Shown here piece by piece: positions 1-26,280 of a stretch of DNA of 64,000 nt. A model generated the notes under the pieces. It was not told the DNA's origin. It saw only the letters and a program-made list of their open reading frames with translations, and did no database searches. The stretch comes from Strigamia acuminata. Its lineage: Eukaryota. The stretch is taken from the NCBI GenBank assembly GCA_949358305.1, contig OX442314.1:30132001-30196000 (forward strand), written 5' to 3'. The position numbers and the translations under genes were made by a program. Numbering within the stretch: the first letter of the stretch is position 1; every line of letters starts with the position of its first letter.

Positions 1-185
1 CATATTTTATTCCCTTTTAACTGTATATTCCCGTATAATAAATACATTTATTATATTTACCTTTTACATTGTCTTGCCGTGTTACATTATTTGGGTAACC
101 GCTTGAGTAAAGCGGTATTGCGAGATCAGAGAGTGACTCATACCACGTATCAGCGACAGACCGAGTTGAGCGCGACACCCCGACA
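1..185 (+). mobile_element. 3' end of an LTR inserted into the RT region of element G1
   Basis: AATAAA at 37-42, ends ...CCCCGACA at 185; RT-connection sequence (KIKSVKEFPEPTCSKDIQRFHG) starts abruptly afterwards in frame with ORF 317..2821. Confidence 0.6.
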
Positions 186-2821
186 AAATCAAGTCAGTCA
201 AGGAATTCCCCGAACCCACCTGTTCAAAGGATATACAGAGGTTTCATGGTCTGTCCAATTTCTTTAGGAAGTTTATTCCTAATCATGCGGATATCGCTAG
301 ACCACTCACCTCAATCATGCATAAAAATGCTGCTTTTGTGTGGGGCAAGGAACAGAAAGAGGCATTCGCAAAAATCAAAGAGATTTTGTGCGATAAAAAC
401 CAAGTTTTACATATGCCCGATATGTCAAAACCTATGGTAGTAATGACTGACGCGTCCCATACAGGGCTCGGTGCAGTCCTCTGCCAGGATGTCGAAGTGT
501 TTAACGAAAAAACACAGAAAAAGATGATGGTCCCAAAACCCGTTGCTTATGCGAGCCGAGTTTTACGAGGGGCTGAAGAACGTTATTCCACTCCCGAACT
601 GGAATGTTTGGCAGTTGTGTGGGCAGTTGATCGCTTCCGCCCATACTTGGAATACACAACGTTCACGTTGGAATCGGATGCGCAAGCGTTAGGCTGGCTA
701 ATGAGAACGCCCGAACCATCCGGCCGATTTGGACGCTGGGCAGTGAAAATTCAGTGCGGAGCATTCAAGATTGTGTTCAGAAAAGGCGCTTTGAACCAGG
801 TAGCCGACGCTCTTTCAAGAGCGCCGTTATCTGCAATGGATACGCCTATTACCGATTACATTGAGCCGGTAGAAATTAACCAATTCTATCCTCTATGGAC
901 CGGTAATAAGAAGACTCAAGTCATTCCAGTTGAAGGACGACGTCACTTTCTAACAAATGTGAATGTTCGTTTTAACGATTTCTCCGAATTAAATGAAGAA
1001 AATTCAAATAATTCTGGAGAAAAGGGGGAAGTGAATGAGAAAGGCAAAACGAAACATCAAACAACAGTATTTAGTGCATTAACCGATGTACTAAATCAAG
1101 TTCCCCCAACCCGAGCCGAAATAATCGCAGAACAATTATTGGATGATGATTGTAAAAAGATTATGGCCCACTTGAAGTTAAGTGAGGAAGACCAAGAATT
1201 AGAGACAGATCTAGACTGGCTAAATACCATAGCTGGATACTGTTTGGATGAAAGTGGGGAGGACGGCAGTAAAATGCTCATTTTCTTTCGTCCCACCTTT
1301 GAAGAGGAGTTGAACGACTCCGGAAATGGATTTAAGGCCGTGATTCCTAAATCTCTCGTAAGAAGAGCTTTATTTGCCTGTCACGGTCACCCCCTTTGTG
1401 GACACGCAGGTATGAGCAAGACTCTGGAAAGAGCAAAGCTCATTTATTACTGGCCAAAGATGACTAGAGATACGCGCAACTATGTCCGTGGTTGCCCGCA
1501 TTGCCAGCAGTACAAGCCAAGCCAGCACCGAAAACATCGAGCGGCTTACACGCCGCATAATATGACGAATCCATGGGAAACCGTGAGTATCGACTTGATG
1601 GGCCCCAAGCCCGCTGGTCGATCGAAGTTACAATGGATATTAGTGATAATAGACCATTGCACCAAATGGGTTGAAGTATTCGCGTTGACAAAGGCCTCTA
1701 GCGAGAGCATTGTCAACAAGATGAGTGACGTTTTTCATCGTTGGGGTTACCCCAAAAAGATATTGTCGGATAATGGAAGACAATTCGTGTCTACTGTCTA
1801 TAGTGATTTTTGTAAAAAACATCACATAGACATGGCACATGTCAGCCCCTATCATGCCTCGGCTAACCCGACAGAAAGGGCTAACCGTGACTTGAAGATG
1901 ATGCTGGCAATTTATTCTGATGTGCACTCTCACTGGCCACGATTCTTGAACGAATTCGCGTTTGCCACGAGAACGGCCATCTCGGATGCAACCGGATTTA
2001 GCCCAATGATGCTGAACACGGGAAGAACGGTACCACTACCATTCGATCCACGTATGGTGGAACACGGGGTAAAGTTTGATAAAAACAAACCCGAAGAATA
2101 CGTACATGGCATTCTGGATGTGCTTAGAAGAGCACATCAAGAAATGCACCGGAAAATCCAGGAGAATTATGTCCGACATGACAAGATTCACCGCAACAAA
2201 TATCACATTTGTCAGTATGCTGTTGGCGATCTAGTCTGGAAAGCTACACATATATTGTCAAATAAAGAAAAGGGAATCACCGCTGGTTTCGCCGAAAAGC
2301 GAGACGGCCCCTGGGAAATCACAGCAGTATTAAAAGGAGGCTCGTATTCATTACGAAAAGTTGCCGATGGATCAATTGAGAAATCAATTAATATCCAGGA
2401 TTTGTCACCTTATATTCCGTCATTTCCGGTTGAAGCTTGGTCGGAAAACCAAACTGAAGGCAGTGAAGGAATTCATCCAACCCCAAATTGGATGGACGAA
2501 CACTTCCCTGTCTCGCAACAGACAGAAGAAGATGTTGTCCCCATGGAAACGGAGGATACCGTCGAAAACGATATTCTCCAACCCCCGGACGAAGTCGTTG
2601 AAGAAGTTATCGAAAATAACGAACTTGAACATATAAAACGAAGAAAGAAAAAATTATTACGGGCTGAAAGACGTTCTAAAAGAACTCCTAAGCCTAATCG
2701 ACAATTTAGCGATGATTTCGTACAAAAAATGCAGGAATTAAATATTTCTGAAAAGAATATTTATTTCACAAAGCATGCACACCTCTACTTTGAAGAGACG
2801 ACTCATCCATGCTATTTTTAA
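186..2821 (+). CDS. pol: Gypsy Pol, C-terminal part (RT connection, RNase H, integrase)
   Basis: TDAS..GLGAVL, YSTPELECLAVVW, ADALSR (RNase H); H-H-C-C zinc finger, DLMGP, SDNGRQF, ERANR (integrase); GPW motif. Confidence 0.95.
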
Positions 2822-2837
2822 AACAAGATAGTGTAAA

Positions 2838-2920
2838 TGAGTCATCAACCAATCACAGAGCTCGGTCTAAAAAATAGACACCTGCTTTGAGGTTGACCTG
2901 TGAACTCACTCTCGTTAGTT
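2838..2920 (+). promoter_or_regulatory. Putative internal promoter downstream of G1 pol
   Basis: TGAGTCA (2838), CCAATCA (2849), Inr-like TTAGTT (2915-2920), followed by GTGAGT donor at 2997. Confidence 0.5.
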
Positions 2921-3362
2921 CCACTACAGCTGACACATCGCTTAACAATTGGTCATCTCGTGAAGTTTTCTGTCAACGCGAAAAATCGGATAAATTGTGA
3001 GTGAATTAATTTACACAAGTCTCGAAAAAGACAACTTTTATTCGATTTTATTTTAGTTAGGAGGTTTGCCCAAACTTCGTAGCTAAACCACGTGGGTTTA
3101 GGCCCGGAAAACTTCGTCTCGTCGAATTTATTCGACAGTCACCGACACCGGACGTTAATACGCGCTTGTTGGAACGAACAACGAGGTTCCGTAGTAAGTT
3201 AAATTTATTTAACGATAAGTTTAATCTTATTCCTAAAGAATTAAGTCCCTAACCACATTCTGTTAGGAAACTACGTTCGTCATTCAACGGTGCGAGCACA
3301 ACTACGTCAGCGGAAGAGAGTTTCGTGATTTTCAACCGAAGTTACGACCAACAGATTCAACA

Positions 3363-6300
3363 ATGAGTGGTAAAGTGCTATTTTTGTATGGTAAAATATT
3401 CAAATACACCGCCATTAACTCGAGAATTCGTCTAGAAAGATAAAAACTCGCCAAGTCATGTTACGAGGTACAGAAAATCCTCGCTAGAGGGTGTTCGCCA
3501 CCTATTAAACATGTAGTGAAAAATTTGTTGTCCGAATTATCGTCTTTTAATCGGTTAAATTAAATTGTAAAATTTATTAGTCGATTATAAGACAATATTC
3601 GTGATATTACGGACCTTTCCTGAAAAGGGAAATTACGTGGAATGAAAATGTTCGATGTTCAATTTGAATATTTAAACTTCACAGTTTAAAATATACGTTA
3701 ATTGTTCAAAGATTAGCAATATTGATCAGATTATAGACGGAGTAACTCACCTTACTCCTCTATTTTATCTTCCAATCTCTTTAAGGAGAATATTCAGGAA
3801 GGAAGACTTAATATATTTATTCCACAATAAATATATTAGAATATTAGCGGTTTATTTGAATTAATACATTTATTTTACAATAAAGGCGTTAATTACTGGT
3901 GACTTGTTGGTATTTATATATTTATGTCACGATAAATATATTAAATATCGGCGATTCATCTGGATTAAGTTATTTTTCGATAACTTTAATTCATTTGATG
4001 TGATTTCTCGAATTTAGGAAAGGATCGAGGGCCACGCAGGTCACCAAATAAGCGTCGCCACGTCCACTACGATCACTCGTCGACGTCAGGCGATTCAAGT
4101 CCTGACCGCGGTAGGCCGCCCCGAAACGAAGAGACTTCAAGGTCTGATGGCTTTCAAGCTGTATTGGACTGGGCCAAGGCACGAGGAAAGGAGCTACCCG
4201 ACTACCTGAGGAAATTGTTAAGGTCTGCCGAGTCAGCGGGAACCTATTCTTCCGGCAGAGAATGTGCTCAGGCCATAATGGATTGGGCCAAGGCACGAGG
4301 AAAGGAATTGCCCGACTACCTGAAGAAGTTAGTGAAATCAGCGGAAGCTTCGGGAACGTCCTCAAAGGAAAACACGCTTCAAGTCACAATTAGAGACGAG
4401 TCCTGGAATCGGCCTTCCACTTCTGCGTCTCATTCCTCGCACTCCAGAGAGAGAAGCAGCCGCCATGTTCGTAGTGACAATCACCCGTACCGTCCGCATT
4501 TCCATTCTGAGAATGAACCACCACGTCCGTTGACTGAACAGCCACGAGTAGTCTATCATTACTCATCGCAAAAGCCCGCTCGAACCACTACGAGTTCCAA
4601 CTGGACGGAATATCGACCAACCCAGTATCGCAGCCGCCATTCCACTCAGAAAAAGGAAGAAACGAAAGCAGCAGCAAAGCCAGTTCCAGCCAAAGCCGCG
4701 CCGATCCTCCCTAAAGAAAAACTGGACGCAGCCACAGCCGCAATCGTAAAGGAACTGAAGAAGGCCGCACCAATCCAGGGCACCAAAGCAGAGCGCAGAG
4801 AAATCGTGGAAAAGGCCGTTAACGTCATTCTTCCCAAATGTCGCCTTCCTTACGATGAACGTGTGGAGGTTACGTGCCCGTTTTGCAATGGTGGAGGCTG
4901 GGCGATAGGAATCGTGCAAGGATGTCATGCGATGCTGTGCCCAAATTGTTCCGGGTGGAAAATTCGTGAGAAAATCTCGCCGTGGAATGACAATGTCTTG
5001 CCTTACGTGGTGATGGGGACCTCGCAGCCTGGACCCCGTATATGGTCCACCTGCGACCCCTGTCAAGTGATTCACTCCCATTTAGGAGAGGTGATCCTAT
5101 GTGACGGTGACGACCACAACTCCCATTTAACAATGGTACCGGGAAGAGATCGCAATAAATAAACAGTGAATACAATACGAGATAAATACAAGACAGTTTA
5201 TTGTTGGTAAACAATAATATCAAGGCTAAATTATACATAGGACTAATGCCGACATTTGGCAAGTTAAATCAGCTATTAAACTATACAAAGAATTGGCCAA
5301 CTGGCCCTAGAATAATATCACTACGGGTCTGGAATATGGGAGCGGTTTCCCCATCGCTCGACCTGATTATAGATGTCATCTTAAGCCGGATGGCTGTGTC
5401 CTGGAGTCCGATACGGCTTCGCTGGTTTCCTTGGTTCGCTGTGTAAACTATCGCACGTCGATAAATCGAATGATCTGAGCATTGCGGTTGACTTTGTCTG
5501 CACCGCCACAACTTTGGGAGGATATTGGTGTAAGTAAATGTATTCATTTACTTATCAATATTCCACTTATGAATTATATTTAATTCATATCGTTGTGAAT
5601 TCTTATTTAGATATTTCGGGAATAAGTTGTCGTCAACTTATCGGTTATATTGAGTTCAATATGAGATTAAGTCTTCTGACTTGATTTTGGTCCAACTGGT
5701 TGTCGAGTTTAAGTTTTGCTGTTATAAATAAAATGAAGATTAAGCTTCCCGTCGCAACACACAATTGCCATCGATTAGAATATACGCCTTGCCATGCAGA
5801 ACGGTATCAAGCGTCCCCGGCGTCGCAGCACGGTCGTCCATCGAGTGGTTGACGGTACCACGTACACAGGGGTCGATAGCTCGCGGCTCCGCACAGCAGT
5901 TTTATCTCTCGCGGTACTAATAATAGACCGACTGCTTTGGCATCGAATACCATGAGAATCAGCTTGCCAAACACTTGGTGCTACTCGTGGTTACTGTAAA
6001 ACAGACTGCTTTGGCACCATCAGGTGAAGGAACCGATTCTCAACAATACCGATGCTACTCGTGGTAACGGAATACGTTCATACCGAAAAAGACAACTTGG
6101 TCCTGTCCGGAGGATACTGAATTGCACAACGGCGGGTTCTCCTTCGGCGTCGCAACCGTAAACTGTAACATTTATGCAACATAATGATCCCAGCACTTCG
6201 ACTTCAATTGCCGGCGGTGGCATGATTCTGTAGAATCATGCAACGGTTCTTTGCGAATAAATCAACAAAGAACCAAAAGGTTTTTTTACGTGAACAACGA

Positions 6301-9300
6301 ATCATATTTCTTAAGTAACAATACCAAACAGAAAATAATCAAACAGAGCTGCAGAATGGCCGGTTGTTTGGGTTTATATAACCTGACTGGATTAAGGATT
6401 AATCCAGTTATCCAATTGGAACATGGGTTCCACGAATCCCTCCAATCCCGTATCACCGGAAGTGGATACGGAGGAACAATGTGCTAATTCTCACCACAAC
6501 CGGAACTGGATACCCAGGACCGGAAATGGATCCACCAATCAGATCTATTGGTTGATCGATTGATCACCAAATGTCCTGTCCCGCAGAAAATGGAAGTTAC
6601 ATTGTATTTAACATCACAAGACATTAATATATCTTTATATTAATGTTCACAAAGCTTCGTTTCATTCTAGTAAATATAGTTTTATATTTATTTACATGTT
6701 TTATATTCATATCTTGAATTTGCCGCTAAATCGTAATCGCGCCATCTTGTGGCAACATTGCGCATTGACAAATGCGGTTTTAGCAGACGACTCTTCGTGA
6801 TTCGGCCGGAATCCTTTGATATCAAGTAGGAATGAGTGTTTATTCTTAATAAACGAACATCTTTGTATTTGAAACATCATAAATAACTTTATTCCAGACA
6901 TTTATCAGTTTTACACAGAATATCTTCGAGATATCATGATAATGGCGCAACAGCGCTTCTTTCTAAGAAAATAGGCATTTATAGCCATTGTAAACCGTCA
7001 CACATCCCCCTTAATAACACAATTATATAAAATTTTATAGAGTTTTCGTTATTCTCCTAATTAGCATAAATGCTATTTTCGGACTTGATGTATCTTGGAG
7101 ATACCGTGACTTCCAATTTCGAATTTGAGCTTACATAAACTAACTTGAATTATCTAAGTTCTGATTTTCTGCCGAAATAATCTTTTCTAATAGCCTAAAT
7201 TCAAGTCCAGAATTTATTTCCAAGTCTTCTTTTTGAAGAAACTTTCGTCATACATAAAATCATCATTTGTGTTATCACAAAATATTTATTTCATATGCCT
7301 AGTCAGATGTATCGCTATAAATATACAATAAATAGCTTTTAGATGATAAGAGTTGACAATTAAGAAATCATAATTGTCCCCCTTAATTGTCATGACCGGA
7401 GTCACTTGGTATTCTTTGTACAATTGACTAATTTAATTAAACTAGTTGTCTTAATAATGTAGCATTACTTTTCAAAATTTTGTTAATTCTAACTTTTATA
7501 TTTTGTCCCCCTTTTCTTTAGAAGAGAGGTCATGATTTTTAGAAGAGGATTTTCTGTTTACACTATAATCGGGGAATCTTTGTGTATCATATCATGTTAA
7601 TCAACATGATTCTTTGCTAAATATTGAGCTCGCATATTTGCAAATTTCCGAGATCTCTCAGCCTGCTGTACTGATTTCTTTCGACGTTTTTTCTTTGGGC
7701 AGTTACACACAGTGTACTCACTTGGCAGTGTAAATGACCGTGACGACCCAACTTTTTGTTTTAGGTCATCTCTGGAAAACCATACATGAATGGGACCCTC
7801 ATTGGAAAACCATACGTGGAAAGGACCCATATTTGGAATTGTGAAATCCCGCAACAAACGAGGGGATCTATATTTGACTCTAAGTCGTGGAACTGATGAT
7901 TGGAAACCTGGGTTTTCAGTCAGTTTTTGAACATGTTGGTTTGTACTTGAAGTTTCTTCATCACCAGCTGGACTTGGTGACCGAAAACGCTTTTTTGAAG
8001 TTCTTAATTCCTCTCGTTGAGATGAATTATTCTGGATATTGCAGGGTTGCTTTCCAGACGCAAATTGTTGTATCTCCGTCAGATTGACGACTGGGACGGG
8101 TTTTAGTCGTTGGTTACGGTATTGATTTCGAAATACGAATTGTTGCGCTTCGTTTATATTTTTAAATTCAGCTGAATTTAACTGGTATTGTTTACAATAC
8201 TGTTCGAATTGATACCGGATCTCCCGTGGGTTAGTCAAAAAACTTTCTTTTTTAGGTTTAAAATCATTCTCATTATCGTGTTGGTAATACTTTTTCAAGG
8301 GAAAAGTTTGCTTGACCTTTTTTCGATTTGAAATGGGCGTTAGGTAGAATTGTCTTGGCTGGGGACTCTTCTTGGTAGACAAATCATACGTCCGCAAACA
8401 TGAGTTTGTGATCGGCGATCGGGCACGTTGTTGTACGTTATTTGACTGCAAATGTTTGTTTGGAGTCCGAATATCTTTCCTTTGCGTTGATATTGGTGGC
8501 CCAAAACTTTTGTTTACGGTTCCCAATTCTTTTGATAGCGGTAGGTTAATCGACAGATTAAGGCTAGCCACATATCGTTGTGCTTCAGCTGGATTAGCAT
8601 ATCGAACTGAAATTAGCTGATCTCGATTGTAAACGAGTTTTAATTTGTTCTGAACAACCGACTGGTTAGTTAACGAACTCTCTGGACGAGAATTATTAGG
8701 TTTATAATTCTCTTCCCCCTTATCTACCGAATTAGGTGGTTTAAACTTTTCTAACTTAGATCCCCTACTGGATGTTTGAAACATAGTATGAGAATCTTGA
8801 TTCACTAAGTTTCGGCTGTATGTTTGTGGATTCCGTACTGGATCTTGATGTGAAGATTGAGATTGGGTACGATCTCGCCAGTTCCTAGCTTTTACATAGT
8901 CTGAAGCTTCGATTATATTTTTAAACTTGGTTTTATCCAGTCCATGACGATTACAATACAGAGTAAAATGATCGGGAATCTTTTCTGTTTGATCGCCAAG
9001 TGGTACAGAACTTAAATTTAAGTTTGTCTGCTTATTATTTCCTTTTGGATCGATCATATTCAATGGTTTTTGAGCCATAAAAAAATTCAAAATCTGACGA
9101 TTTTAATTCTTTAATTTATAAAGAAGACGAATATAATACACTTTTCAACAAGAAACACTTCTAAACTTTACTTTTGACAAAATAAAATTAAACTTCGCGT
9201 TTGTTTGACACGTGTTAGCTTTTGCAGGTTACACGGCACACAAAATTCGAATCGTGACTGAAATCGGGACGGCGTGGTCAAGATGACTCTGGAACACGTC

Positions 9301-12300
9301 TTCTGGTCTGGTCTGGATGCGAATGATCAGTATCTGATCTGGTCCTCCTTTAATAGCAGGGGGCTGGGGATCCCTAGATCTCCCAACTTCTGATTGGCGG
9401 ATGTTAGTGTCGGCCAATGGTATAAAGGACGTTACATCTATTTAGTAGTTCTCTACTAAGTCCGTTCCCTTCGAGATTCAATTTTACCGATAAAATAAAA
9501 TTCCTTCGGGAAGACATTCGTAAAATATTGTATTTTTCAAATGAAAATAAAATAAACTTACTTCAATCTTCTTGAACTTTGGGATTTTTACCAATCCAAA
9601 TAATTAAATAACTTTTCTTCAAAAAATATTTTTCTTTGATTATTCCGTTTAGTGTGTAATATCATTACAACCACAGTTTTAATAAAGTTTTCTCAAACTC
9701 TCAATTTTTCTTATTCTTATTCAATTATCGTTCAAATAATCATTCCTTTGTAATTGAAATCTATTTTCGATTCCCAACATTGTGTATTCATTTCCAATAG
9801 GAAGAATAATTTGACCAAGTCTTTACTTTTTCGGGTTTAAATTCCATTTTTCGAGTGTGAAAAAATAAATTTTCACCATCCATCTCCCCCTTTTTTAACA
9901 AATTTTTTTAACAAATAAAAATTCGTTAAAATTCTTTAAATTTGTTTTGCGAGAAAAATTATCTAATTCTCTAATCTTCCAAAAGAAAATATTCGAAATT
10001 TTACTTTAAACGATAAAGTTATTGGTACAAATGTGTACTTGTTTTTCGGGAGAAAACTATTCGACAATCCTTTAGACTTTTGGGTAAAAATTATTCATCA
10101 AATCTTTCTTTTTTGATGACAATTGCTTTGATTTTTCGAAAGAAAATATCTAGCTAAATTCCACTTTTCCTGAGCGGACAATTGTTTTCACAATTAGTTA
10201 TTCCTTTGCGATATTTACGAAGGACGTGTCTTTGATTATTCGTTTTAATAATTTTCGTCCCCCTTATCTCTAATAACGAGATGTTTTTGCAGAGATCTTT
10301 TATCTTTTGAATGAAAGAATATTTAAATCTCAATTGTCGTAAATACCTTCATCTGCTGCAGCATTTCCTCAATTTGAACTTTTCAAATGAAAAGACAAAT
10401 CTGGAGAACTTTCACTGTCAAACTTCTATTCCTATCGCGCCAAAATTCGTAATTCACTGGTTTGGAATTCCGTATAACACGTGACACAATAACAGTATCG
10501 ATGTCACAATTAAGCAGTTTACTACTCGGTCCGCGCGAGGACATGTAAATTACTTTTTTCCGATAAAAATAATTTTTCTTTGAAAAATATTTGAAATTGA
10601 TTTTTCACAACTACTTTTGAATGAAATAAAATGAAGTTATTCCAACTTTTCGTTAATTGCTCACACATAACATTCCCTTTACTGTGGGATTTGCATCGAA
10701 ATTCCATTTTTAAAGAACCTTTCTTTTACTTATCGCAAATAAAACATATTCAATCGTTTTTCTGATTAAACTTTAACACGTAAATTACGAACGAAATATA
10801 TGATGACATTCCATTAACCTTTAGGAAAATTGACTAAATTCTTAATTTTTAGAGAAAAATAATGTATCTAGAATCTTTCCTTTTCCGAATAAAATCTATG
10901 TTCAAAATAGAAGATAAATCTTGTGCAATTCTTAGTTTTTTCGAATGGAAAAATACAACTTTTCATCAGCGGTGATTTATTTGATTTTTCCGAAAGAAAA
11001 ATAATTACTTTGAAACTTATTTTCTTCGTTTAAATCAGCTATCTGATTTTAAAGCTTCAATCCAATCAAAAAATATTCGCTCCGTAAATATTTCATGTGG
11101 CAAAGTTCATAGCCACAAATGGATTTGTTATTCCGGTTTTAAGAAATCATGTGGGAAAATGTCCGATTAGATTACTAAAAATATTCGTTGTTTTTCAAAC
11201 AGCTAAATTTCATTTAGAAATTCTCAAAATTTGGGAGACCCAAATATCGTTGGAAACTTAAAACACTGTTAAATTTCCGAAAGGAAAGATTGAATGAAAT
11301 CCTTTTACTTTTCCGAGGGAAAGCGTTTATCGTGATTCGTAACTTTCAATGTAAAAAATACTATTCTATGTGGTCGGCAACTTCATTCGCCGCCATTTTA
11401 TATTTTCTTAATTTCCATTGTCCCGAAGGAAAAAATGTACTTTTTGTGAAAATAGTTAATTCCTTCAAATAAAGGTAATATTCATTTCGATTTGCAAATC
11501 TTTTCTGCGAAATGGAGTGTGTTGTTTTTCTCCAACAACTAAATTATCTTTGGTACCGATGGCAGTGGAAAAATTAGTTCGCGACACTTAAATAAATCTC
11601 TACGAACCTTCTGTAACATTTCTCCGCTGTCTTTTATCTGTTGTCCGCCATAATTTCCAAGCATTCGTTCGCACCTTGCGTTGAAGGTTTGAGTAGCTTC
11701 CCTGCTGCGTTTGATACGGAGATCGACGCGTATTGCTATGGCGCGTGGTCGCTGGCTATCGGTGTCGACGTACAGTTACAAGAAACTTAATTTCTTGTAA
11801 ATATTTCCAAATAGTTGCGGTGTTTTCTTCGTTTTAACTTTTCAGGTGGAAAGATAAATTCGTAAGAAGTCCGCCTTCTAAACTTGTATGTTTTTAGCTT
11901 TTCGAAATAAAACAAACTTCGAAAAAAAATATCTGTATTCTTATTTCACTCGAAACTTTTTTGATTTCTTATTTAAAATACTTCGTATTCCTTAAATTGT
12001 CGAACGAAAATAGTAAAGAGAGTTCACTAAACGTTTCCATTTCGTCAGTTTAACTTTTCACATGAAAATATAAACTGAAAATCTATTTGTCTGTTTTAAC
12101 TAAAATTTTTTAGTTAATATCGGATTCAAGATTCGCTTTTGCAATTCGATCGAATTAATTTGCAACCTATTTCAGTGATCGTGTGATAGGTCTATAACTT
12201 CCGAAATTCCTAGTTAAAGGACTGTTTTGGTGTTTCTCAAGAAAATAAACATGGTTTGAAACTTGTCTGTTTTTTAACTAAATCTTTTAGTTAAATATTT

Positions 12301-15300
12301 ATCTCAAAATTCACTTTTACAATTCTATCGAATTTAATTGCAACCTAATCTCGGTGGGACCTCCACGTGTGAGATTAGGTGGTAGTCTTTGAAATCCCTA
12401 AAATCTTCAAACGAAAATAATGAAGGAAAATCTACTACGTATTTCTATTTCATCAGTTTAACTTCTTCACATGGAAATATAAACTGAAAATTTAATCTGT
12501 CTATTTTTAACTTAAATCTTTTAGTTAAATATTTATCTCCAATATTCACTGTTGCAATTCAATCGAATTTAATTGCAACCTAATCTCGGTGGGACCTCCA
12601 CGTGTGACGGTGACGACCACAACTCCCATTTAACAATGGTACCGGGAAGAGATCGCAATAAATAAACAGTGAATACAATACGAGATAAATACAAGACAGT
12701 TTATTGTTGGTAAACAATAATATCAAGGCTAAATTATACATAGGACTAATGCCGACATTTGGCAAGTTAAATCAGCTATTAAACTATACAAAGAATTGGC
12801 CAACTGGCCCTAGAATAATATCACTACGGGTCTGGAATATGGGAGCGGTTTCCCCATCGCTCGACCTGATTATAGATGTCATCTTAAGCCGGATGGCTGT
12901 GTCCTGGAGTCCGATACGGCTTCGCTGGTTTCCTTGGTTCGCTGTGTAAACTATCGCACGTCGATAAATCGAATGATCTGAGCATTGCGGTTGACTTTGT
13001 CTGCACCGCCACAACTTTGGGAGGATATTGGTGTAAGTAAATGTATTCATTTACTTATCAATATTCCACTTATGAATTATATTTAATTCATATCGTTGTG
13101 AATTCTTATTTAGATATTTCGGGAATAAGTTGTCGTCAACTTATCGGTTATATTGAGTTCAATATGAGATTAAGTCTTCTGACTTGATTTTGGTCCAACT
13201 GGTTGTCGAGTTTAAGTTTTGCTGTTATAAATAAAATGAAGATTAAGCTTCCCGTCGCAACACACAATTGCCATCGATTAGAATATACGCCTTGCCATGC
13301 AGAACGGTATCAAGCGTCCCCGGCGTCGCAGCACGGTCGTCCATCGAGTGGTTGACGGTACCACGTACACAGGGGTCGATAGCTCGCGGCTCCGCACAGC
13401 AGTTTTATCTCTCGCGGTACTAATAATAGACCGACTGCTTTGGCATCGAATACCATGAGAATCAGCTTGCCAAACACTTGGTGCTACTCGTGGTTACTGT
13501 AAAACAGACTGCTTTGGCACCATCAGGTGAAGGAACCGATTCTCAACAATACCGATGCTACTCGTGGTAACGGAATACGTTCATACCGAAAAAGACAACT
13601 TGGTCCTGTCCGGAGGATACTGAATTGCACAACGGCGGGTTCTCCTTCGGCGTCGCAACCGTAAACTGTAACATTTATGCAACATAATGATCCCAGCACT
13701 TCGACTTCAATTGCCGGCGGTGGCATGATTCTGTAGAATCATGCAACGGTTCTTTGCGAATAAATCAACAAAGAACCAAAAGGTTTTTTTACGTGAACAA
13801 CGAATCATATTTCTTAAGTAACAATACCAAACAGAAAATAATCAAACAGAGCTGCAGAATGGCCGGTTGTTTGGGTTTATATAACCTGACTGGATTAAGG
13901 ATTAATCCAGTTATCCAATTGGAACATGGGTTCCACGAATCCCTCCAATCCCGTATCACCGGAAGTGGATACGGAGGAACAATGTGCTAATTCTCACCAC
14001 AACCGGAACTGGATACCCAGGACCGGAAATGGATCCACCAATCAGATCTATTGGTTGATCGATTGATCACCAAATGTCCTGTCCCGCAGAAAATGGAAGT
14101 TACATTGTATTTAACATCACAAGACATTAATATATCTTTATATTAATGTTCACAAAGCTTCGTTTCATTCTAGTAAATATAGTTTTATATTTATTTACAT
14201 GTTTTATATTCATATCTTGAATTTGCCGCTAAATCGTAATCGCGCCATCTTGTGGCAACATTGCGCATTGACAAATGCGGTTTTAGCAGACGACTCTTCG
14301 TGATTCGGCCGGAATCCTTTGATATCAAGTAGGAATGAGTGTTTATTCTTAATAAACGAACATCTTTGTATTTGAAACATCATAAATAACTTTATTCCAG
14401 ACATTTATCAGTTTTACACAGAATATCTTCGAGATATCATGATAATGGCGCAACAGCGCTTCTTTCTAAGAAAATAGGCATTTATAGCCATTGTAAACCG
14501 TCACACCTAGTAGACCCACGGTTCATCGTAGACAATCACCGACCCGGCGGTTACGAGGTTACCACTTGGACTCAGGACGAGGTCCGGATGCTCGCCAATT
14601 TAAGCTTGAAAGCTAAAAAGGCCAATGAAGAATTAGAAGTGAAGCAAGCGGCCCAATTAGCGATGACTCCCGTCACCGAGGCAACGATCCAATGCGGAGC
14701 CACTCAACCAACTGAGGCGTCCAAGACCCCCACACCGGTGGAGTCTCCCAAGACGATCACACCTCCACCAGGCCCACCAGCCAAGAAGTTGCCGGCATTA
14801 AAATCTGTTGTGACGGCGTATCCTTTCGTGGTTCCGGCAGGCATCACAAATGAACACGCGGCCGAGTGCGAGATTGACCACTACACTCCCATCATCAGGG
14901 AAGCCGCCTTGGACATTTCTCGACGATTGAACAAGAAGCGCAACGTTTATTACCAGTTGCCCATTCTCGTTATGAGATGGATAATGAATCCACTGCGCAC
15001 TGAGCCTTTTCCTGTGTTGGAACACATATGGGCACGCTTGCTCGAACGTGTGAGCCAACTTCCCGCCGCCATCCATATCCGCGCAGATTGGAGTGTCGAG
15101 CTTCCGACAGCTGAAGAGGTTTATAACCAGGAACGACAGGCCAGGGATCCACCAATTAACAGTTTGCGCCCGCTACCCGACAGCTTTGCCGCCAGAATTG
15201 GTAGACCGAGTACGACGAGAGGAATTTCCCCGCGGGAAGAAGCCCCACTACCGAGAAGTTCGTCGGAAGACTCGTCGAAACTCGTCATTGACGAGAGTAC

Positions 15301-15364
15301 CGACCCTGAGCCGAACAAGAAGGATGATGGAGAAGCAGATGGCCGCAAAAGCCCCATCATTTAG
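3363..15364 (+). CDS. G1 spliced accessory gene, ~647 aa, zinc-finger-like, disrupted by G2; join(3363-3369,4018-5099,14510-15364)
   Basis: ATG AGT G|GTAAAG phase-1 donor matches phase-1 TTTAG| acceptor at 4017; removing G2 plus one CCTA copy fuses ORF 4164.. in frame with ORF 14588..; CPFCNGGG...CHAMLCPNC motif; tandem DWAKARGKELPDYL repeat. Confidence 0.75.
5100..7002 (-). repeat. G2 3' LTR
   Basis: Direct repeat of 12603-14505 (offset 7503; ORF-track translations identical). Confidence 0.97.
7597..9078 (-). CDS. G2 accessory ORF, 493 aa, unknown function
   Basis: Only long ORF in an AT-rich interior; first ATG after a TATA/Inr; internally repeated FxxYCxxxxLxxxxFKNIxEA motif; PKKKRRKK near C-terminus. 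Confidence 0.7.
   Translation of the reverse strand: MAQKPLNMIDPKGNNKQTNLNLSSVPLGDQTEKIPDHFTLYCNRHGLDKTKFKNIIEASDYVKARNWRDRTQSQSSHQDPVRNPQTYSRNLVNQDSHTMFQTSSRGSKLEKFKPPNSVDKGEENYKPNNSRPESSLTNQSVVQNKLKLVYNRDQLISVRYANPAEAQRYVASLNLSINLPLSKELGTVNKSFGPPISTQRKDIRTPNKHLQSNNVQQRARSPITNSCLRTYDLSTKKSPQPRQFYLTPISNRKKVKQTFPLKKYYQHDNENDFKPKKESFLTNPREIRYQFEQYCKQYQLNSAEFKNINEAQQFVFRNQYRNQRLKPVPVVNLTEIQQFASGKQPCNIQNNSSQREELRTSKKRFRSPSPAGDEETSSTNQHVQKLTENPGFQSSVPRLRVKYRSPRLLRDFTIPNMGPFHVWFSNEGPIHVWFSRDDLKQKVGSSRSFTLPSEYTVCNCPKKKRRKKSVQQAERSRKFANMRAQYLAKNHVD
9321..9400 (-). promoter_or_regulatory. Core promoter of G2 accessory ORF
   Basis: CCAATCAG (9397-9390), TATTAAAG starting 9355, Inr TCATTC (9326-9321) with +1 31 nt downstream of the TATA-like box. 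Confidence 0.6.
12000..12602 (-). repeat. Three imperfect tandem copies (~190-240 bp) of the G2 5' leader, including a second PBS copy
   Basis: AATCTCGGTGGGACCTCCACGTGTGA at 12347 and 12582, degenerate copy near 12165; shared hairpin motifs. Confidence 0.85.
12582..12600 (-). promoter_or_regulatory. Primer binding site, tRNA-Gln
   Basis: TGGAGGTCCCACCGAGATT is complementary to the 3' end of animal tRNA-Gln; 2 nt from the LTR. Confidence 0.85.
12603..14505 (-). repeat. G2 5' LTR
   Basis: Adjacent to the PBS; repeat of 5100-7002. Confidence 0.97.
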
Positions 15365-16099
15365 TCAGAAACGTTACGTCCACGCATCGCGTCGTGTCGG
15401 ACGATATTCGTCAAGTTGAGTTTTTTTTTTAGCCTGTTCAGGCGATCAAAACAATTATTATCCGAGATCGTGTTGTGTTCATTCCTGCTAAACGAACTAA
15501 TTGTTAAAAAACTTTTATGTTTCCTCACCGAAATGTGCAACTAAAGAGTCGACACATTTTTAAACCGAACTAATTTTTGTAATGAAACTTTTTTTCGTGT
15601 TGTTTTCTACAGCCCAGAGGGGTGAATATTTTGAAGAGTTTGTTTTTTCAATTTAAGTTGAACAAAATAATTTAACTGTGATACTTTATTTTTTCATTTT
15701 AACAAATGTGAATTTAATCTTTGTAACCCGAAAATTTTATTGATACAGATAACATTATATTATTTAACGATAATTTATGTGTGTTTATTTTTCAAGAAAT
15801 TAACAAGTTTTGAAAGAATAAATAGAAAAACTTTCGTTTGAACATTTAATAATTTGGTGATTATTAAAGACTATTTCGGAGTTGAACATGATGAATAAGT
15901 CCCGATGAACTATTATATATTTTCGTACGAAGATATATAATATACGAGATGAACTATTAAAATTATATACGGAAAAATATAAATTTCATTAGTTGATACA
16001 TGCGTTAGTTGACTCTAACTGAAGAAGATTTGTCATATATCGCAGTGAAGACGAATCAAGAGGGAATATTTTAAGATATGCCCCTTGATAAGGGGGATG

Positions 16100-17797
16100 T
16101 ATGACGAACACGGTATTGTTTATGCAATATCATGCCAAATCCCACCGATAGATGGCGCTGACGTCCATAAGCGGCAAATTCGAATAGAATTTGTCACTTG
16201 ATGTAAAACCACATAAAATATAACTTTTATGTGATTTTAAGACAGAGAATCGACTTTATCTTATATTTATGGAAATAAATACAGATATTATGTTGTTTTG
16301 TGGTAACTCTGCAAAGTTACCTCAAAACTAGGTTTAGGGGATTAAATCTCCCCCTCGCACCTGCTCCCAGCGTGGACCCCCGCGGATCAAGTTGAAAGAC
16401 TTAATCCAAAAGTGTTCCTCGCTATCCAGTTCCTGTCCCGACCTAGCAGAGAGCTATGGCCTGAGTATCCAGTTCCTGTTGACCACCTGGACTGGAAATG
16501 TGCTCTGAGTATCCCATCACGGTGACCAGTGATTGGGGGGATTTGCAGAACCATTGCTCTCATTGGAGCAATGGCCAAGCTATTGTTTTCCCCGAGTATA
16601 TACTTCCTCGCAACAGGAAGTAGCTCGCTCTTGACCAGATATTTGACTATATGTTTTCTTGAGCCCATTCTACTACTCCGGTTGTCATGTTGATTGCGCA
16701 GACACTTGCTTGTCTGTTGATTGCGCAGTCAATGCCCCTTATACTGCGGGCCTATGACAACCTACATACGGCGTACACTTGACGTGGAGATGGGTGATAT
16801 GATGCCTCCATGTCCGGGTGCCCGATGACGGCTGTGTGGCCGTGAGGAGATCAGGTCGCGGCGATGAGTAGTAAGAATCCCGTCGGGCCGGATATAATTC
16901 AACAAGTGTTCCACAAGGCCTGCCAGTTACAGTAAGCCACGGCTGCCGAACAGCGTGTCGAAAATGTAACATTAGGGTTGAAATAACTAAACTCGGAAAA
17001 GTTTAGTTAGATTAAATCCCCAGCTAGTTTATGTCACAACTCAGCATTGTGCATAAACACGGATACTTCTTCCAGAACTGTACAAAACTGAAGACTAGCT
17101 ACATTAGCATTTACTTGCCAGTAAATGTGTAGCTAAATTGCCAACTTTATGTAAGCAGAATTATTACGAGTATTTACTGAAAAGTAATACTCTAATAAAT
17201 ACATCCATTACACGGAACCAGAAGTTATGATTGTAAACTCGCAACAGTTTACTCTCGTATGAAGAACCAATTTGACGTATCACACCAATTATAAATGTCT
17301 TAAAACATTTATAAGAGGTCAATTGGTAAATGGCTCTCACAAGCCATTTAAACCAATAACCGCCCCAAGTTTGTGGCGATGCAGATACAGTCAACCGGAA
17401 GTCCTCGGATACTAACCCTTTCATTACAGATTCGAACCAGGACCAAACAATCAACCGATTCAGACGACATCTTACCAGGGCAAAGCCGATTGATATTATT
17501 ATAGCGCCACACAGGCAACTATATGTATAGTTTAATCGAGAATTCCTTGGCCATTTGTCGGCATAGTTATTGTGTAACTATATTTTATGCAAATTGATTA
17601 ATATAATCACTTTACGGTGATTATATTTAGATATCAATAAATATGTTATGTCTTGATAACCACCGGTTTCATTATTTTACCCAGTTCACACTTTAGGTTT
17701 GTTAACTTATCTCTCAACTACTAGAATTGATAGACTTGCTTGTTATGCCAAAATACACATTTTGAGCGGATAGCGTCATCGAAAGGTCATCGTCACA
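16100..17797 (+). repeat. G1 3' LTR (~1.7 kb), related to G2 LTR
   Basis: Follows PPT; termini TATGACGA...TCGTCACA; blocks at ~16150, ~16460 and ~17352-17398 resemble the reverse complement of G2 LTR blocks. Confidence 0.85.
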
Positions 17798-18391
17798 AGT
17801 GTTAGAAGAAATTCGTAATTTTTCCAGTGCTCGACTGGTTAAAAATTCTCGTCGCTGAACGGCGCGAACACGTTTGCGCTGTTCTTTGACATGGGAATTC
17901 ACTTGTTTTTCGAACCAAGACGGATTTTCAGCAGCAACATTTCGCCGGAATTGTTGCACCTCTTCCGATATTTGGTTCGGTTTGGCCTTTGGTTGCTGTT
18001 CGGTTGCTTCGGCGACCTTTACAGCTTCCAAAAACTTTGACTGTTCTGTCAATTTCGACCCGACCGCTTTTTTGTTATTGAAGACTTTCGTCTTCTTTCT
18101 TGGCGGTTGCGTCGGTTCGGCGACTGGAGCAACAGGAGAACGGGACCTTTTCAGGGCCTTCATTCGCTGCTCCTGGTTGTCGAACGCGGCCCACTTGGGG
18201 TATTGAGCTTGAAGAGGAAGCGGTTCCCCCGGCGCCGACATAAAACGCTGGAACCACGGTTGTAACGGTTTGTCGGCTGACACCACTTTCAAATTTAGAC
18301 AGTTTTGACAAACCATCGTACAATTTGTGGGTGTCAAAAAGGAACCGTAACCGCCGCAAACTGGACAAACATCTCGATCGTTTGGAGACAT
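17798..18391 (-). CDS. G3 accessory ORF (N-terminal part; truncated by G1 insertion)
   Basis: First ATG (MSPNDRDVCPVCGGYG...CTMVCQNC) after TATATAGG (18503) and CCAAT; PPRKKTKV basic motif; reading frame runs into the G1 LTR at 17797. Confidence 0.7.
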
Positions 18392-18619
18392 GATTTGGTT
18401 CGAGACGATTGGCAACGATTGGAAACGATGGCGTTGGTAAGGTGTTGCTGTCCTGATCAGCAAGCGAATTGTGACTTGATTGATCTGGCAGGCACCCTAT
18501 ATACGAATCGTTTGTACACGTCTACAAGACGTCTCGTGTACCAATAGCGTTCGTATTGGCTACGAGGCGCGGACGTGACGGAAGACTATTTTTGATCTTC
18601 CTGGTGGTTTAGTTTGTCC

Positions 18620-19800
18620 CTAATCTCGATAACGAGCTGGTTTTCTACGATCTCTAGGTGGTAGAATCGTTAGATCCAAAGGTTTTGGCCAATTTGTTGC
18701 TTTCTTTTGAGGGATTGCAACAATTGTTTGGTCATTCACATTTGAATCCATTGAATTCTGGTTTAAAGTTCCAGGTTGCGCTGGTTGCTGTAGTGGGACT
18801 ATAGCACCAGTGTCCGTTGGTTGATCCATGTGATTTACCACAGGGATTTCTTCATCAACTCATCTGGTATTGGCCAAACTGGTCTGGTTTCATTTGGGAT
18901 ATATCATTTTAATTGAACAATATTATATGTCCCTTTGGTCACCAGCGTGATTGGTGTGGCCAACACATAGACATTTTGATTCACAACTTTTGTTATCACA
19001 TAAGGTCCCATGAATCTGTCTTCTAGAGAAGCTGCATATCTGATGGCTGCCCTCGAGAGTGGGTGTGTTTTTAGTAAGACTAAATCATCCACTTCAAAAC
19101 AATCCTCAGATCTGTGCTTATCATAATATCCTTTCTGCTTTTTCTGGGCTAGCAACTTATTTTTAAGTGCAGCATTGATTAAAGCTTTGGTTCTCCCAGC
19201 CAGCATTCTCATTGCATCATACGGTTTTTCAGGGTCGAAAGGGGTGTCATAAGATACCTCTCTATTATCATAAAAGGGCCATAACTCACGCAAATAAGTC
19301 ATCTGTGCTGGTGAGAAACCAGTGGAGGCATTTACAGCCGAGTGCAACGCAAAATTAATGTCATTGATGCATTTATCCCACTCATCATGTTCAAAAGTGA
19401 ATATTTGGAGTAGGATTTTTATATTTCTGTTTACTCTTTCTGTGAGGTTTGTTTGGGGATGATATGGAGTTGTTTTTAAAGGAATAATTCCTGCATCCTT
19501 GCACAGCGCCTCATAGATCTCAGAAATAAATTGGGGCTATCGTCACTTATAGGTAGCATGGCCACCCATGTGAGATTTCTGCTCCAATTCATTAGTTTTG
19601 TAAAAAGGACTGCACCGAGCCCCAATTCGAGCTGGTAACTGTGTTAAATAGTGACCAAGCTAGAAATACTGGGCAGAGGCAGCACGTTCCTTTTTGCATA
19701 TGATTTCACTTATTTAAAACATTTGGGGCATGGCTGCCCTGTTTTTTGTCTCAAATGAATCCCACATCTCCATTCACAGGATAGGGGGCGATAATTCTTT
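18620..19800 (-). pseudogene. pol: Decayed Gypsy pol of element G3 (integrase, RNase H remnants)
   Basis: PYHPQTNLTERVNR, STGFSPA, GPY, C-terminal RDRRKPARYRD; stops, frameshifts; GLGAVL remnant at ~19606-19622 implies a large deletion. Confidence 0.85.
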
Positions 19801-19968: not shown

Positions 19969-22285
19969 GGATTTTTAACCCATAATATGACCATATTCTC
20001 AAGGAGAAAACAATCAGTCGTTTAGAACAAAAGTTCAGAACCAGATCTGTATGGTCTGATTCCAATACACATGATTTACATGCAACTCGCATGATAAATC
20101 TTGTATCATGAACTTTGACATTTTTAAACCTGATTTTTCGGGAAATAATTGCCGTATTTGTTCATCAATTATTTGTCATTCTGATCATTGTTCCAAGTGT
20201 GGAGCAAATCTCGAAGCCTAACCCATTGTTCCATTTGTTTCTGTCTTAGCCCTAAAATTGTATTTTTTCCTAATAAAAGAAATCAAAACAACTTTTTTTG
20301 TTCAATTTGCACATTTTTATGTGCAAAACAACCTTTTGCGCGGGCGAGAACAGACACAAAACTTAGGAATCTCAAGAAATAGCAAGCAGCCCTGTTTTTT
20401 AGTTTTTTTCTTATGGTTTTTTAACCTTAAAATTGAAATCTTGAGAAATTTCAATTTTTTACTGAGGAAAAATTAACCTTGGGTGAAAAAAATACTGCTT
20501 GCAAAATTTGGAAGCCAAGTTCAGAACCATACCAGAGTGGTGTGATTCCAAAAAACATGATGTTGCAATTGCAAAAGTCGCCACATCTTGTAACATGAAC
20601 TGCCATCTTCCAAATTTTTAGTGGAAGCCTACTTTTTACTAGAAAGATTTCAGCTTCCAAAAGAAGAAAGGAAAAAATACACTAAAATAAAGAATAAGAT
20701 GGAAAAGGTGGTTATTTTTTGAGGTGACTGCACCTCGAAAATCTGCACAAAAACCAATCCAGTCATACCCCGCGCGCGTCGCTTCTCGTCCGCCGAGTCG
20801 CTCGCATCGTCCACCGCATGCGTTTTGGGTCGCTTCTCGTCCACCGAGTTGCTTCCCCGTACTCCGCACCTCCTACTACCACGCACTCCGCATCGCCGGG
20901 AGATACTCCCTCAAACGTCGCTCGATGCGACACCAAGGTGCCTCGCAGCACCTCGATGGCACTGCACTGGGATGTACGACATCCCAGTGAAATTTTGGTA
21001 GGTGGTGCACAGCATATATCTTAAAGAAGAAGGGAGAAACATGCAAATGCACCAAGGTTCTTTGCAGTCAGCAGAAACTTGCTGCCATCGTCGCAGGCGA
21101 GTCGCTCACCAACCAGCGAGTTCGGTCTGCCCGGCATTTGAGGTTGCTGTTTCCACAAGCTGCCCTGTGCTGCAGGAACCCAAATAATAGATAGAGAAAA
21201 ATTGAAGAAATAGAAAAATGCAAATAAAAAATCATAATTTCTTCCTTTTTAATAATAAATTACCAAAAAGGGAGAGAAGTCAGAAGAAAAAATGTGAAAT
21301 TTCAAAGTTACAGACTGGATTTCTAGTCTCTTTTCAGAGCTGGTAGCCATCTGAACTCATGCAGCTGCAGGAAATACAGCTACATGACGTTTGAGCACTG
21401 CACTGTTGGCCTCCCCGTGCCAACAGCAGCTCGCCCCGCTATCCAGGTCCCAATGCTCCAGATTTCTATGAAATGTGATCAACATTTCGGAATCTTTCTG
21501 CACCAGTACCTGGGACAGGGTAGAATTTAGTTTAGGGTCTGCCCGTTATGTTTCAGAGCGGTATCAGAGCCACGTGCACGCAGCTAAGACCTTTGCAGCA
21601 GTGATCAGATTCTACGCGTGTGTTTACACGGAGCCGTTTAGCCTGGAACTTATCCCTCCTAGCCAGAAAACACTCTGGTTTCGCGGAGAGACCAGCCAGT
21701 CCCATAAACCGCCTGATCCCACTGCCACCTCGCCACTTCTCCGAGCTACCTTTGTTGCCGCATTCTCGCCCGGCCCACGGTTTTCCAGTAAAACCCACTG
21801 GAGTGTGGCATTTGGTATCATGCCCGCTTTCGCCAATGGTTTCTGGTCGCACAAATCGTACGATTTGTGGCCGCCACCTCGAATCAGCGTCAAACACTCC
21901 AGCGCTGGTCCACCGCTTTGGAATGGGCTGCGCACCAAGAAAGTGAAATAAAAAGAAGTAATTTGCAACAGTCCCCATCATTTCACGTTTTGGTTGCATC
22001 AAAACTTGTGAAAAAACTAGAAAAGTTGCTTTGAAAGAGAGAGTTGCACAAGTCTCATTCATGCAATACCCAGGCATGGAAGACATGTGCCGCTCGATAA
22101 TTTTTGTTGGACTTGGTTCCAAGGCCATACTGCTGAGAAATCATGCCAGCGCCGCTGCGCCGGTCATTACTGCAGCAGAAATGACCCCCTTGTCACGAAT
22201 TGTGACCAGAAAGAATCTCCCCTAAAGAAAAAGAAATGAAAATTTCTCCCTTTTAGGTTCAAAACATCCCGGACGGGCCCACAAT

Positions 22286-26202: not shown

Positions 26203-26280
26203 TAAAAGCTAAATTTGAAGAAATGATTTTATTTTTGATTCGGCAGATTTCTTTAGTGCCAATTATTATTATATTAACAA

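What the first reader, a model, noticed from the sequence alone, without database searches (positions are those of the whole stretch)
2838..15364. Second element (G1) has the same architecture: internal promoter, three introns, 647-aa zinc-finger-like ORF
Seen: TGAGTCA/CCAAT/Inr right after pol, then introns 2997-3056 (GTGAGT..TTTTAG), 3194-3266 (GTAAGT..CTAAC..TTAG) and 3370-4017. The spliced leader has no ATG until CAACAATG at 3363, whose 7 coding nt join the long exon in phase (MSGKDRGPRRSPNKRRH...). The two ORF-track pieces (4164.. and 14588..) fuse once G2 is removed. I see no similarity to the G4 accessory protein, so the architecture appears conserved while the cargo differs (inference).
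Basis: partly seen in the sequence, partly recalled or inferred. Interest (0 to 1): 0.82.

Follow-up and report, generated by a model that had tools for sequence, protein, structure and literature searches.

The report
Retrotransposon carries a spliced extra gene
A Ty3/gypsy jumping gene carries, behind its pol gene, an extra protein gene that is conserved in other copies and in centipede relatives; it is predicted to be read from its own promoter through three introns and likely encodes a zinc-binding nuclear regulator of the element.

Summary
Promoter motifs, three GT..AG introns, the single leader ATG (3363) and 647 in-frame codons are at the stated places. The window copy is broken by G2 (5100-14505, identical LTRs, 4-bp target duplication), but contigs in 3 of 3 DNA runs (2 studies) cross that site uninterrupted. 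The ORF is under selection: 16 of 27 listed substitutions are silent (24-31% expected); 9 of 9 indels lie outside it. Its Cys/His domain has three relatives, all Strigamia maritima gene models in which it follows G1-like pol. The cargo differs from G4's but is inherited with the G1 lineage. It has no membrane segment and no named family or fold. Splicing and the internal promoter remain predictions: no RNA was available, and the 'Inr' also reads as a splice acceptor. Earlier scan notes show accessory genes in other gypsy elements, none of this family. Verdict: real non-Env accessory gene; new variant of a known kind.

The parts
170..2821 (+). G1 pol, 3' part (RNase H, integrase zinc and core domains)
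   Evidence: ORF; Pfam RT_RNaseH E 5e-30, Integrase_H2C2 E 2e-19, rve E 7e-12; best relatives P0001 and S. maritima pols
2838..2921 (+). Predicted internal promoter: TGAGTCA 2838-2844, CCAAT box 2847-2855, Inr-like TTAGTT about 68 nt downstream (also readable as a splice acceptor at 2918)
   Evidence: sequence; pair unique in window; function inferred
2997..3056 (+). Predicted intron 1 (5' UTR)
   Evidence: GTGAGT..TTTTAG, GC 0.27; 1 of 4 strict mini-intron matches in 128 kb; an X3 contig keeps this AG and lacks the next one
3194..3266 (+). Predicted intron 2 (5' UTR)
   Evidence: GTAAGT..CTAAC..TTAG, GC 0.26; mini-intron match; CTAAC altered in a major subfamily
3267..3369 (+). Predicted exon 3 with the start codon at 3363 (7 coding nt)
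   Evidence: only ATG in the leader exons; a 1-nt indel at 3336 in other copies lies upstream of it
3370..4017 (+). Predicted intron 3 (phase 1)
   Evidence: GTAAAG..TTTAG, GC 0.29; 7 of the 9 indels lie here, one at 4012 just before the acceptor
4018..5099 (+). Accessory ORF, long exon, 5' piece: basic Ser/Arg-rich head, two helical repeats (4155-4244, 4269-4358), linker, Cys/His domain
   Evidence: 16 of 27 listed substitutions silent, 0 of 9 indels
4752..5099 (+). Conserved domain with three CxxC pairs (first Cys at 4875, 4938, 5052) and a following His; predicted zinc-binding
   Evidence: phmmer E 1.8e-21 and 3.4e-18 to P0121, P0122; six Cys invariant in 4 of 4 rows, the His in 3 of 4
5100..14505 (-). 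G2, a nested LTR element without gag/pol: identical 1903-bp LTRs (5100-7002, 12603-14505), 4-bp target duplication (5096-5099, 14506-14509), own 501-codon ORF 7597-9102
14510..15364 (+). Accessory ORF, 3' piece: end of the conserved domain, Pro/Thr linker, helical C-terminal region, stop
   Evidence: same frame as 5' piece; loose ends behind 5099 match 14510-14539; 24% over 88 aa to P0005, E 0.016 among 125 proteins
15365..16112 (+). AT-rich 3' UTR, polypurine tract (about 16090-16100) and probable start of the 3' LTR (end not determined)
   Evidence: GC 0.30; same purine run as precedes the G2 and G4 3' LTRs

Best explanation
G1 is a Ty3/gypsy LTR retrotransposon that carries a conserved, sense-strand, non-membrane accessory gene between pol and its polypurine tract; the gene is predicted to be transcribed from an internal promoter just behind the pol stop, spliced at three introns, and translated from ATG 3363 into a 647-aa protein that likely binds zinc and nucleic acid in the nucleus and likely regulates the element's own RNA. 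Shown: the ORF, its selection, its uninterrupted state in other copies, its co-inheritance with pol. Strongly inferred: a splice into about 4018, because codons 4018-4277 are under selection yet have no in-frame start of their own. Inferred: the internal start site and the two leader introns. Least certain: the function. The model is a two-step switch as in foamy viruses: the short spliced RNA is made first, and its product turns on or protects the full-length, unspliced RNA that must keep these introns in order to copy them into new DNA.
For: Uninterrupted copies: loose ends behind 5099 match window 14510-14539 in X1 and X2 exactly and nearly in X3; X2 record 16 has 168 letters before and 77 after the site (match located). 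Selection: 16 of 27 listed exon substitutions silent against 24-31% expected (p 7e-5 to 2e-3, crude omega 0.2-0.3); the two other frames give 5 and 6 of 27; 9 of 10 silent in the helical repeats; a diverged subfamily differs at 9 of 30 letters across the G2 site, in 7 codons, all silent (read by eye); 9 of 9 indels at 30% share lie in leader or introns (p 0.003). Need for a splice: first in-frame ATG of the long exon is 4278, unspliced reading from 3363 stops after 26 codons, other copies have a 1-nt insertion at 4012, and 5 of the 6 listed changes before 4278 are silent (4019; 4037-4229). Relatives: P0121, P0122, P0005 hold pol remnants 43-60% identical to G1 pol and, downstream, the Cys/His domain at 36-38%. 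No membrane segment (best 19-residue hydropathy 0.91 and 1.33), K+R 13-17%. Promoter: CCAAT about 68 nt before an Inr-like site; G2 has CCAAT/TATA/Inr-like motifs at -73/-31/+1 before its ORF; G4 has two TGACGTCA behind pol. Precedents: Tor3b/4b internal promoter (PMC4402516, passages); foamy-virus IP with Tas and Bet (PMC13220597, abstract).
Against: No transcript evidence supports any junction or start site. The Inr-like site and 2929 are plausible splice acceptors, so an LTR-driven RNA fits the same sequence. Donor 3 is GTAAAG. The intron-2 CTAAC is altered in a major subfamily and the Inr-like site lacks a letter in a diverged one. Only 40 of 132 substitution rows were shown, none beyond 4661, so conservation of GT/AG/ATG is not proven and the Cys/His domain is outside the 27-site test. 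In the Ser/Arg/His linker only 5 of 15 changes are silent. X1 and X2 are one study and may include the window's own source. The N-terminal head and helical repeats have no significant match in the Strigamia proteins (46 to 406 of 500 shuffles reach the score). No family, structure or fold gives a function.
Confidence: 0.5

Rival explanations
1. The same accessory gene is expressed from the 5' LTR by a multiply spliced subgenomic RNA, as env usually is; the motifs behind pol are chance or enhancer sites and 2918 or 2929 is the first acceptor.
For: AG at 2918 and 2929 each follow 10 of 15 pyrimidines; a diverged subfamily keeps both AGs (loose end behind 2915). LTR-driven splicing is the rule for env and is used by Tor3a (PMC4402516, passages) and stated for bdelloid ORF3s (PMC5408684, passages).
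Against: The TGAGTCA-CCAAT pair is unique in the window and sits at a usual CCAAT distance from the site; G2 and G4 also show promoter-like motifs before their ORFs. The strict mini-introns score higher as splice sites than these two AGs.
Confidence: 0.3
2. The gene is real and spliced, but its product acts on the host's silencing machinery (DNA methylation, small RNAs or chromatin) rather than on the element's own transcription or RNA processing.
For: S. maritima methylates its LTR elements and one Copia family there captured a methyl-CpG binding domain (PMC6673714, passages); the protein has conserved domains separated by a fast-changing linker; weak, non-significant PHD-finger rows (E 0.08-0.09).
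Against: No match to any chromatin-reader family above cut-off; the host is inferred only from best hits; G1 shows no CpG loss (o/e about 1.0 in pol and ORF), which neither needs nor excludes this.
Confidence: 0.12
3. The segment is a host gene captured with its promoter and introns and carried passively.
For: Own promoter-like motifs and short spliceosomal introns resemble a cellular gene.
Against: All three relatives are joined to pol remnants and no free-standing relative was found among 1.84 billion representatives or by profile among longer proteins; selection acts across subfamilies.
Confidence: 0.05
4. The ORF is an envelope or fusogen gene, or a neutral open frame with chance splice signals.
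For: Position between pol and polypurine tract is that of env (PMC5408684, passages).
Against: No hydrophobic segment, basic N-terminus; silent-site excess, no indels and distant homologues rule against a neutral frame.
Confidence: 0.03

Closest known systems
Oikopleura Tor3b/Tor4b env from an internal promoter (PMC4402516, passages)
   Same: LTR retrotransposon with a sense third gene behind pol; in Tor4b the start lies in the space that follows pol.
   Different: Tor products are membrane glycoproteins and their RNAs lacked evidence of splicing; G1's product has no membrane segment and three predicted introns.
Foamy-virus internal promoter with tas/bet (PMC13220597, abstract)
   Same: Internal promoter, spliced accessory RNA, regulatory product acting on IP and LTR: the working model here.
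   Different: A retrovirus with env; no sequence likeness found; G1's promoter, splicing and activity are untested.
Plant pol-3'LTR additional ORFs, e.g. maize Grande gene23 (PMC7264820, passages and reference title)
   Same: Family-wide accessory gene of unknown function between pol and 3' LTR, own promoter, nuclear product proposed as regulator.
   Different: Antisense to gag-pol; the review's text has no occurrence of 'intron'; plant lineages; no sequence relation tested.
Bdelloid rotifer ORF3 cargo (PMC5408684, passages)
   Same: Related LTR families carry different non-env ORF3s in one position.
   Different: Cargo there is GDSL lipase, DEDDy nuclease, coiled-coil or membrane proteins; no internal promoter mentioned.
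Strigamia maritima gene models T1IMA5, T1IH97, T1IRW1 (P0121, P0122, P0005)
   Same: Same Cys/His domain downstream of G1-like pol.
   Different: Automatic models that join pol remnants to the ORF and are named only for pol domains; their DNA could not be inspected.

Membership tests
Ty3/gypsy LTR retrotransposon (Metaviridae) | pol with RNase H before integrase | tested here: met
   Pfam order in 170-2821
Ty3/gypsy LTR retrotransposon (Metaviridae) | Polypurine tract followed by a 3' LTR | tested here: inconclusive
   Purine run at about 16090-16100 like those of G2 and G4; LTR extent unknown
Ty3/gypsy LTR retrotransposon (Metaviridae) | 5' LTR, primer site, gag, protease, RT | not testable with these tools
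   Lie before the window; no genome held
Ty3/gypsy LTR retrotransposon (Metaviridae) | Dispersed multi-copy family | tested here: met
   Contigs in identity bands from 99+ to under 90% in 3 of 3 runs
Env-type ORF3 (errantivirus, Tor) | Signal peptide and transmembrane anchor | tested here: not met
   Best 19-residue hydropathy 0.91 and 1.33; basic N-terminus
sORF2/FAST-like fusogen | Short protein with a transmembrane domain (PMC11952523, passages) | tested here: not met
   647 codons, no hydrophobic segment
Internal-promoter accessory unit (Tor3b/4b, foamy virus) | Capped RNA starting inside the element | not testable with these tools
   Motifs present; no RNA could be laid
Foamy-virus Tas/Bet | Sequence homology to Tas or Bet | tested here: not met
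   No such Pfam family at E 0.1 for either piece; only three relatives found
Foamy-virus Tas/Bet | Trans-activation of internal and LTR promoters | not testable with these tools
   Needs a reporter assay
Grande/Retand-type additional ORF | Antisense to gag-pol | tested here: not met
   ORF is on the pol strand
Named zinc-finger families (DnaJ CxxCxGxG, anti-TRAP, PHD) | Profile or fold match above cut-off | tested here: inconclusive
   Anti-TRAP 20.5 bits against cut-off 32; DnaJ E 0.55; PHD E 0.08; model pLDDT 52

The most novel reading that the evidence does not exclude
A centipede-associated Ty3/gypsy clade has evolved a complex-retrovirus-style regulatory cassette: an internal promoter and a multi-intron leader behind pol that drive a nuclear zinc protein of an undescribed family, which switches on or protects the unspliced genomic RNA; sister families (G4, perhaps G3 and the non-autonomous G2) keep the cassette with unrelated cargo.
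Probability: 0.3. Interest if true: 0.8.

Novelty: new variant of a known kind. Interest (0 to 1): 0.62.

Why it matters
The role of non-env additional ORFs in LTR retrotransposons is an open question (PMC7264820, passages). Here is an animal example with a defined, conserved, undescribed domain, selection shown in DNA, young multi-copy carriers and exact predicted junctions, so one RNA-seq or CAGE data set would test it. If the introns are real, an element that copies itself through RNA keeps three sense introns in its DNA copies, which calls for a retention or export control otherwise known from complex retroviruses. It also shows that existing Strigamia gene models hide this gene inside 'pol' annotations.

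Tried and rejected
No genome was held, so full copies could not be counted or aligned. No RNA holder listed (6 runs, 3 hold the stretch, 2 studies); X1 and X2 are of unrecorded kind but their contigs run through the predicted introns, so they were treated as DNA; no GT..AG joint is listed, as expected for DNA. Word search with the 5' piece: 0 of 3762 candidates. Third phmmer hit P0123 is a repetitive protein matching only a CxxC stretch and was dropped. Atlas: no usable feature hit, structure rows TM 0.27-0.34. Single-sequence fold pLDDT 38, four-row fold pLDDT 52; Foldseek PDB and viral: no match at E 0.001; wide search best Z 3.8: no fold assigned, none excluded. Viral contigs: no match; metagenome contigs: 8 of 310 candidates, all distant, none with a hit to the accessory ORFs. 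G3's ORF has two CxxC pairs but no significant likeness to G1's (E 0.88; E 2.5). The maximum-likelihood tree did not finish; FastTree on 112 of 128 sequences (those with enough integrase coverage) was used, without named clade references, so no clade name is given. One search carried a mistyped letter for one row; one search is the corrected count. Homology of the C-terminal region rests on single BLASTP hits; no alignment or profile of it was made. Literature: searches listed no description of this family; passages of PMC13524379, PMC13486581, PMC12477816 and PMC7998251 added nothing on it. No supplements were read; those of PMC6673714 and repeat libraries may annotate these Strigamia elements.
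Full report
1. Setting. The window is a nest of LTR elements from an AT-rich eukaryote. G1 lies on the + strand: a pol frame at 170-2821 with RNase H and integrase domains, about 1.2 kb of leader, a long open exon, an AT-rich 3' region and a polypurine tract near 16090-16100. Its 5' end is outside the window and no genome is held. The best pol relatives are an unnamed Logan protein (P0001) and Strigamia maritima gene models, about 44-52% identical, so the host is probably a centipede or relative (inference). In a FastTree of 112 of 128 integrase regions, G1, G4, P0001 and six Strigamia rows form one clade (SH 100), G1 among the Strigamia rows.

2. The observation. All stated motifs are in place. 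The three predicted introns have GC 0.26-0.29 between exons of 0.40-0.56. A strict mini-intron pattern matches 4 places in 128 kb and two are introns 1 and 2; the GC alternation is reached at 46 of 125,079 other positions; TGASTCA with a nearby CCAAT occurs once (post-hoc patterns). ATG 3363 is the only ATG in the leader exons, its 7 coding letters are in phase with the exon from 4018, and the total is 647 codons without a stop. G2 spans 5100-14505 with identical 1903-bp LTRs and a 4-bp target duplication; the ORF pieces on its two sides are in one frame.

3. Other copies. The run search listed 6 runs; 3 hold the stretch (shares 0.44-0.50, 2 studies). Their contigs run through the predicted introns and were treated as DNA. 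In 3 of 3, contigs leave the window at 5099 and go on with letters that match 14510 onward (located), so uninterrupted copies exist and the G2 insertion is particular to this copy or a few. All 9 indels listed at 30% share lie in the leader or introns, none in 1082 coding letters (p 0.003). Of the 40 substitution rows shown (of 132), 27 are in the long exon and 16 of these are silent, against 24-31% expected; the other two frames give 5 and 6. The excess is concentrated in the helical repeats (9 of 10) and absent from the linker (5 of 15). A diverged subfamily differs at 9 of 30 letters across the G2 site, in 7 codons, all silent (by eye). No shown row hits a GT, AG or the ATG, but 92 rows are hidden, and the intron-2 CTAAC is changed in a major subfamily.

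4. Why a splice is needed. The first in-frame ATG of the long exon is at 4278; reading from 3363 without splicing ends after 26 codons; other copies carry a 1-letter insertion at 4012. Yet 5 of the 6 listed changes before 4278 are silent. Translation must therefore enter near 4018 from an upstream exon. That the donor is 3370 and the start site is internal is inferred: AG 2918, inside the Inr-like site, and AG 2929 are also fair acceptors, so an LTR-driven RNA is a live rival.

5. The protein. No Pfam family passes cut-off. A full phmmer scan of 1.84 billion representatives gave 3 hits at E 0.001: P0121 (1.8e-21), P0122 (3.4e-18) and an unrelated repeat protein. P0121 and P0122 are S. maritima models; with P0005 they hold G1-like pol remnants (43-60%) followed by the same domain (36-38% over 115-162 aa). 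Six cysteines in three CxxC pairs are invariant in 4 of 4 rows, and the Strigamia sequences continue in register across the point where G2 sits. The 3' piece matches P0005 weakly (24% over 88 aa, E 0.016 among 125 proteins). A profile search of longer proteins returned only these three (3 of 3645 candidates). There is no membrane segment and the protein is basic. Folding was poor and no fold matched. The ORFs of G2, G3 and G4 are not detectably related.

6. Mechanism. Best reading (0.5): an internal promoter behind pol makes a short RNA, spliced three times, for a nuclear zinc protein that regulates the element's own RNA, as Tas does from the foamy-virus internal promoter (PMC13220597, abstract). 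Shown: ORF, selection, intact copies, co-inheritance. Inferred: junctions and start site. Guessed from composition and analogy: function. That the ORF is a real translated accessory gene I put at about 0.9. Rivals: LTR-driven splicing (0.3), action on host silencing (0.12; S. maritima methylates LTR elements, PMC6673714, passages), captured host gene (0.05), Env or neutral frame (0.03).

7. Relation to what is known. Internal promoters for a third gene are known in Tor3b/4b, but for unspliced env (PMC4402516, passages); own-promoter nuclear accessory genes in plants, but antisense (PMC7264820, passages); varied ORF3 cargo in bdelloids (PMC5408684, passages); fusogenic sORF2 in insects (PMC11952523, passages). 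G1 fails the Env, sORF2 and antisense tests. Nine literature searches listed no description of this family; subscription papers, repeat libraries and supplements were not seen. Earlier scan notes describe accessory genes in other gypsy elements, none by sequence or place for this one; they are unchecked and are not counted as support.

8. Verdict. A real, conserved, non-Env accessory gene with an undescribed Cys/His domain, in a layout shared with G4; expression route and function untested. New variant of a known kind; interest 0.62.

Noticed in passing
window 9079-9397 (-) and 7597-9102 (-): G2 has no gag or pol but a 501-codon basic ORF without Pfam match, preceded by CCAAT (9397), TATTAAA (9355) and an Inr-like site (9326) at -73/-31/+1 and a possible intron 9171-9094. 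Contigs of 480 and 560 nt match it without a difference at depth about 9,000-9,900 in X2, against about 2,300 for G1 pol contigs: a young, abundant non-autonomous family carrying only an accessory gene.
   Followed up: partly
window 33992-36976 (-): G4 leader: two TGACGTCA, intron 36738-36673, ATG 36634 exon, intron 36544-36275, 770-codon frame. Two further ATGs (36898, 36787) lie upstream of its first intron.
   Followed up: partly
window 17714-19536 (-): G3: integrase remnant (CpG o/e 0.33) followed by a 260-codon ORF with two CxxC pairs (CpG o/e 1.27); not detectably related to G1's domain; an LTR-like segment and primer-site-like motif lie at about 22260-22840.
   Followed up: partly
window 1-177: The pol frame begins abruptly near 178 after a CA end, and depth in the first bin is over ten times that of pol: probably another abundant element inserted in G1 pol.
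   Followed up: no
window 4154-4357: The two helical repeats share an identical 23-nt run in the window copy, while major copies differ there by silent changes in repeat 2: possible conversion between repeats in this lineage.
   Followed up: no
window 53799-55214 (+): Single-exon 471-codon leucine-rich-repeat ORF (LRR_6 E 7e-8).
   Followed up: no
window 26278-27945 (+) and 31056-32297 (-): Two related ORFs of no assigned family in inverted orientation (67% DNA identity over 1.1 kb); the first is split by a stop.
   Followed up: no
window 47798-48454 (-): Exon ending in an [11 protein letters not shown]-like stretch that recalls JAMM deubiquitinases (family name recalled, not tested; translation).
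   Followed up: no
window 46808-47512: 31-bp tandem array, about 13 near-identical units.
   Followed up: no
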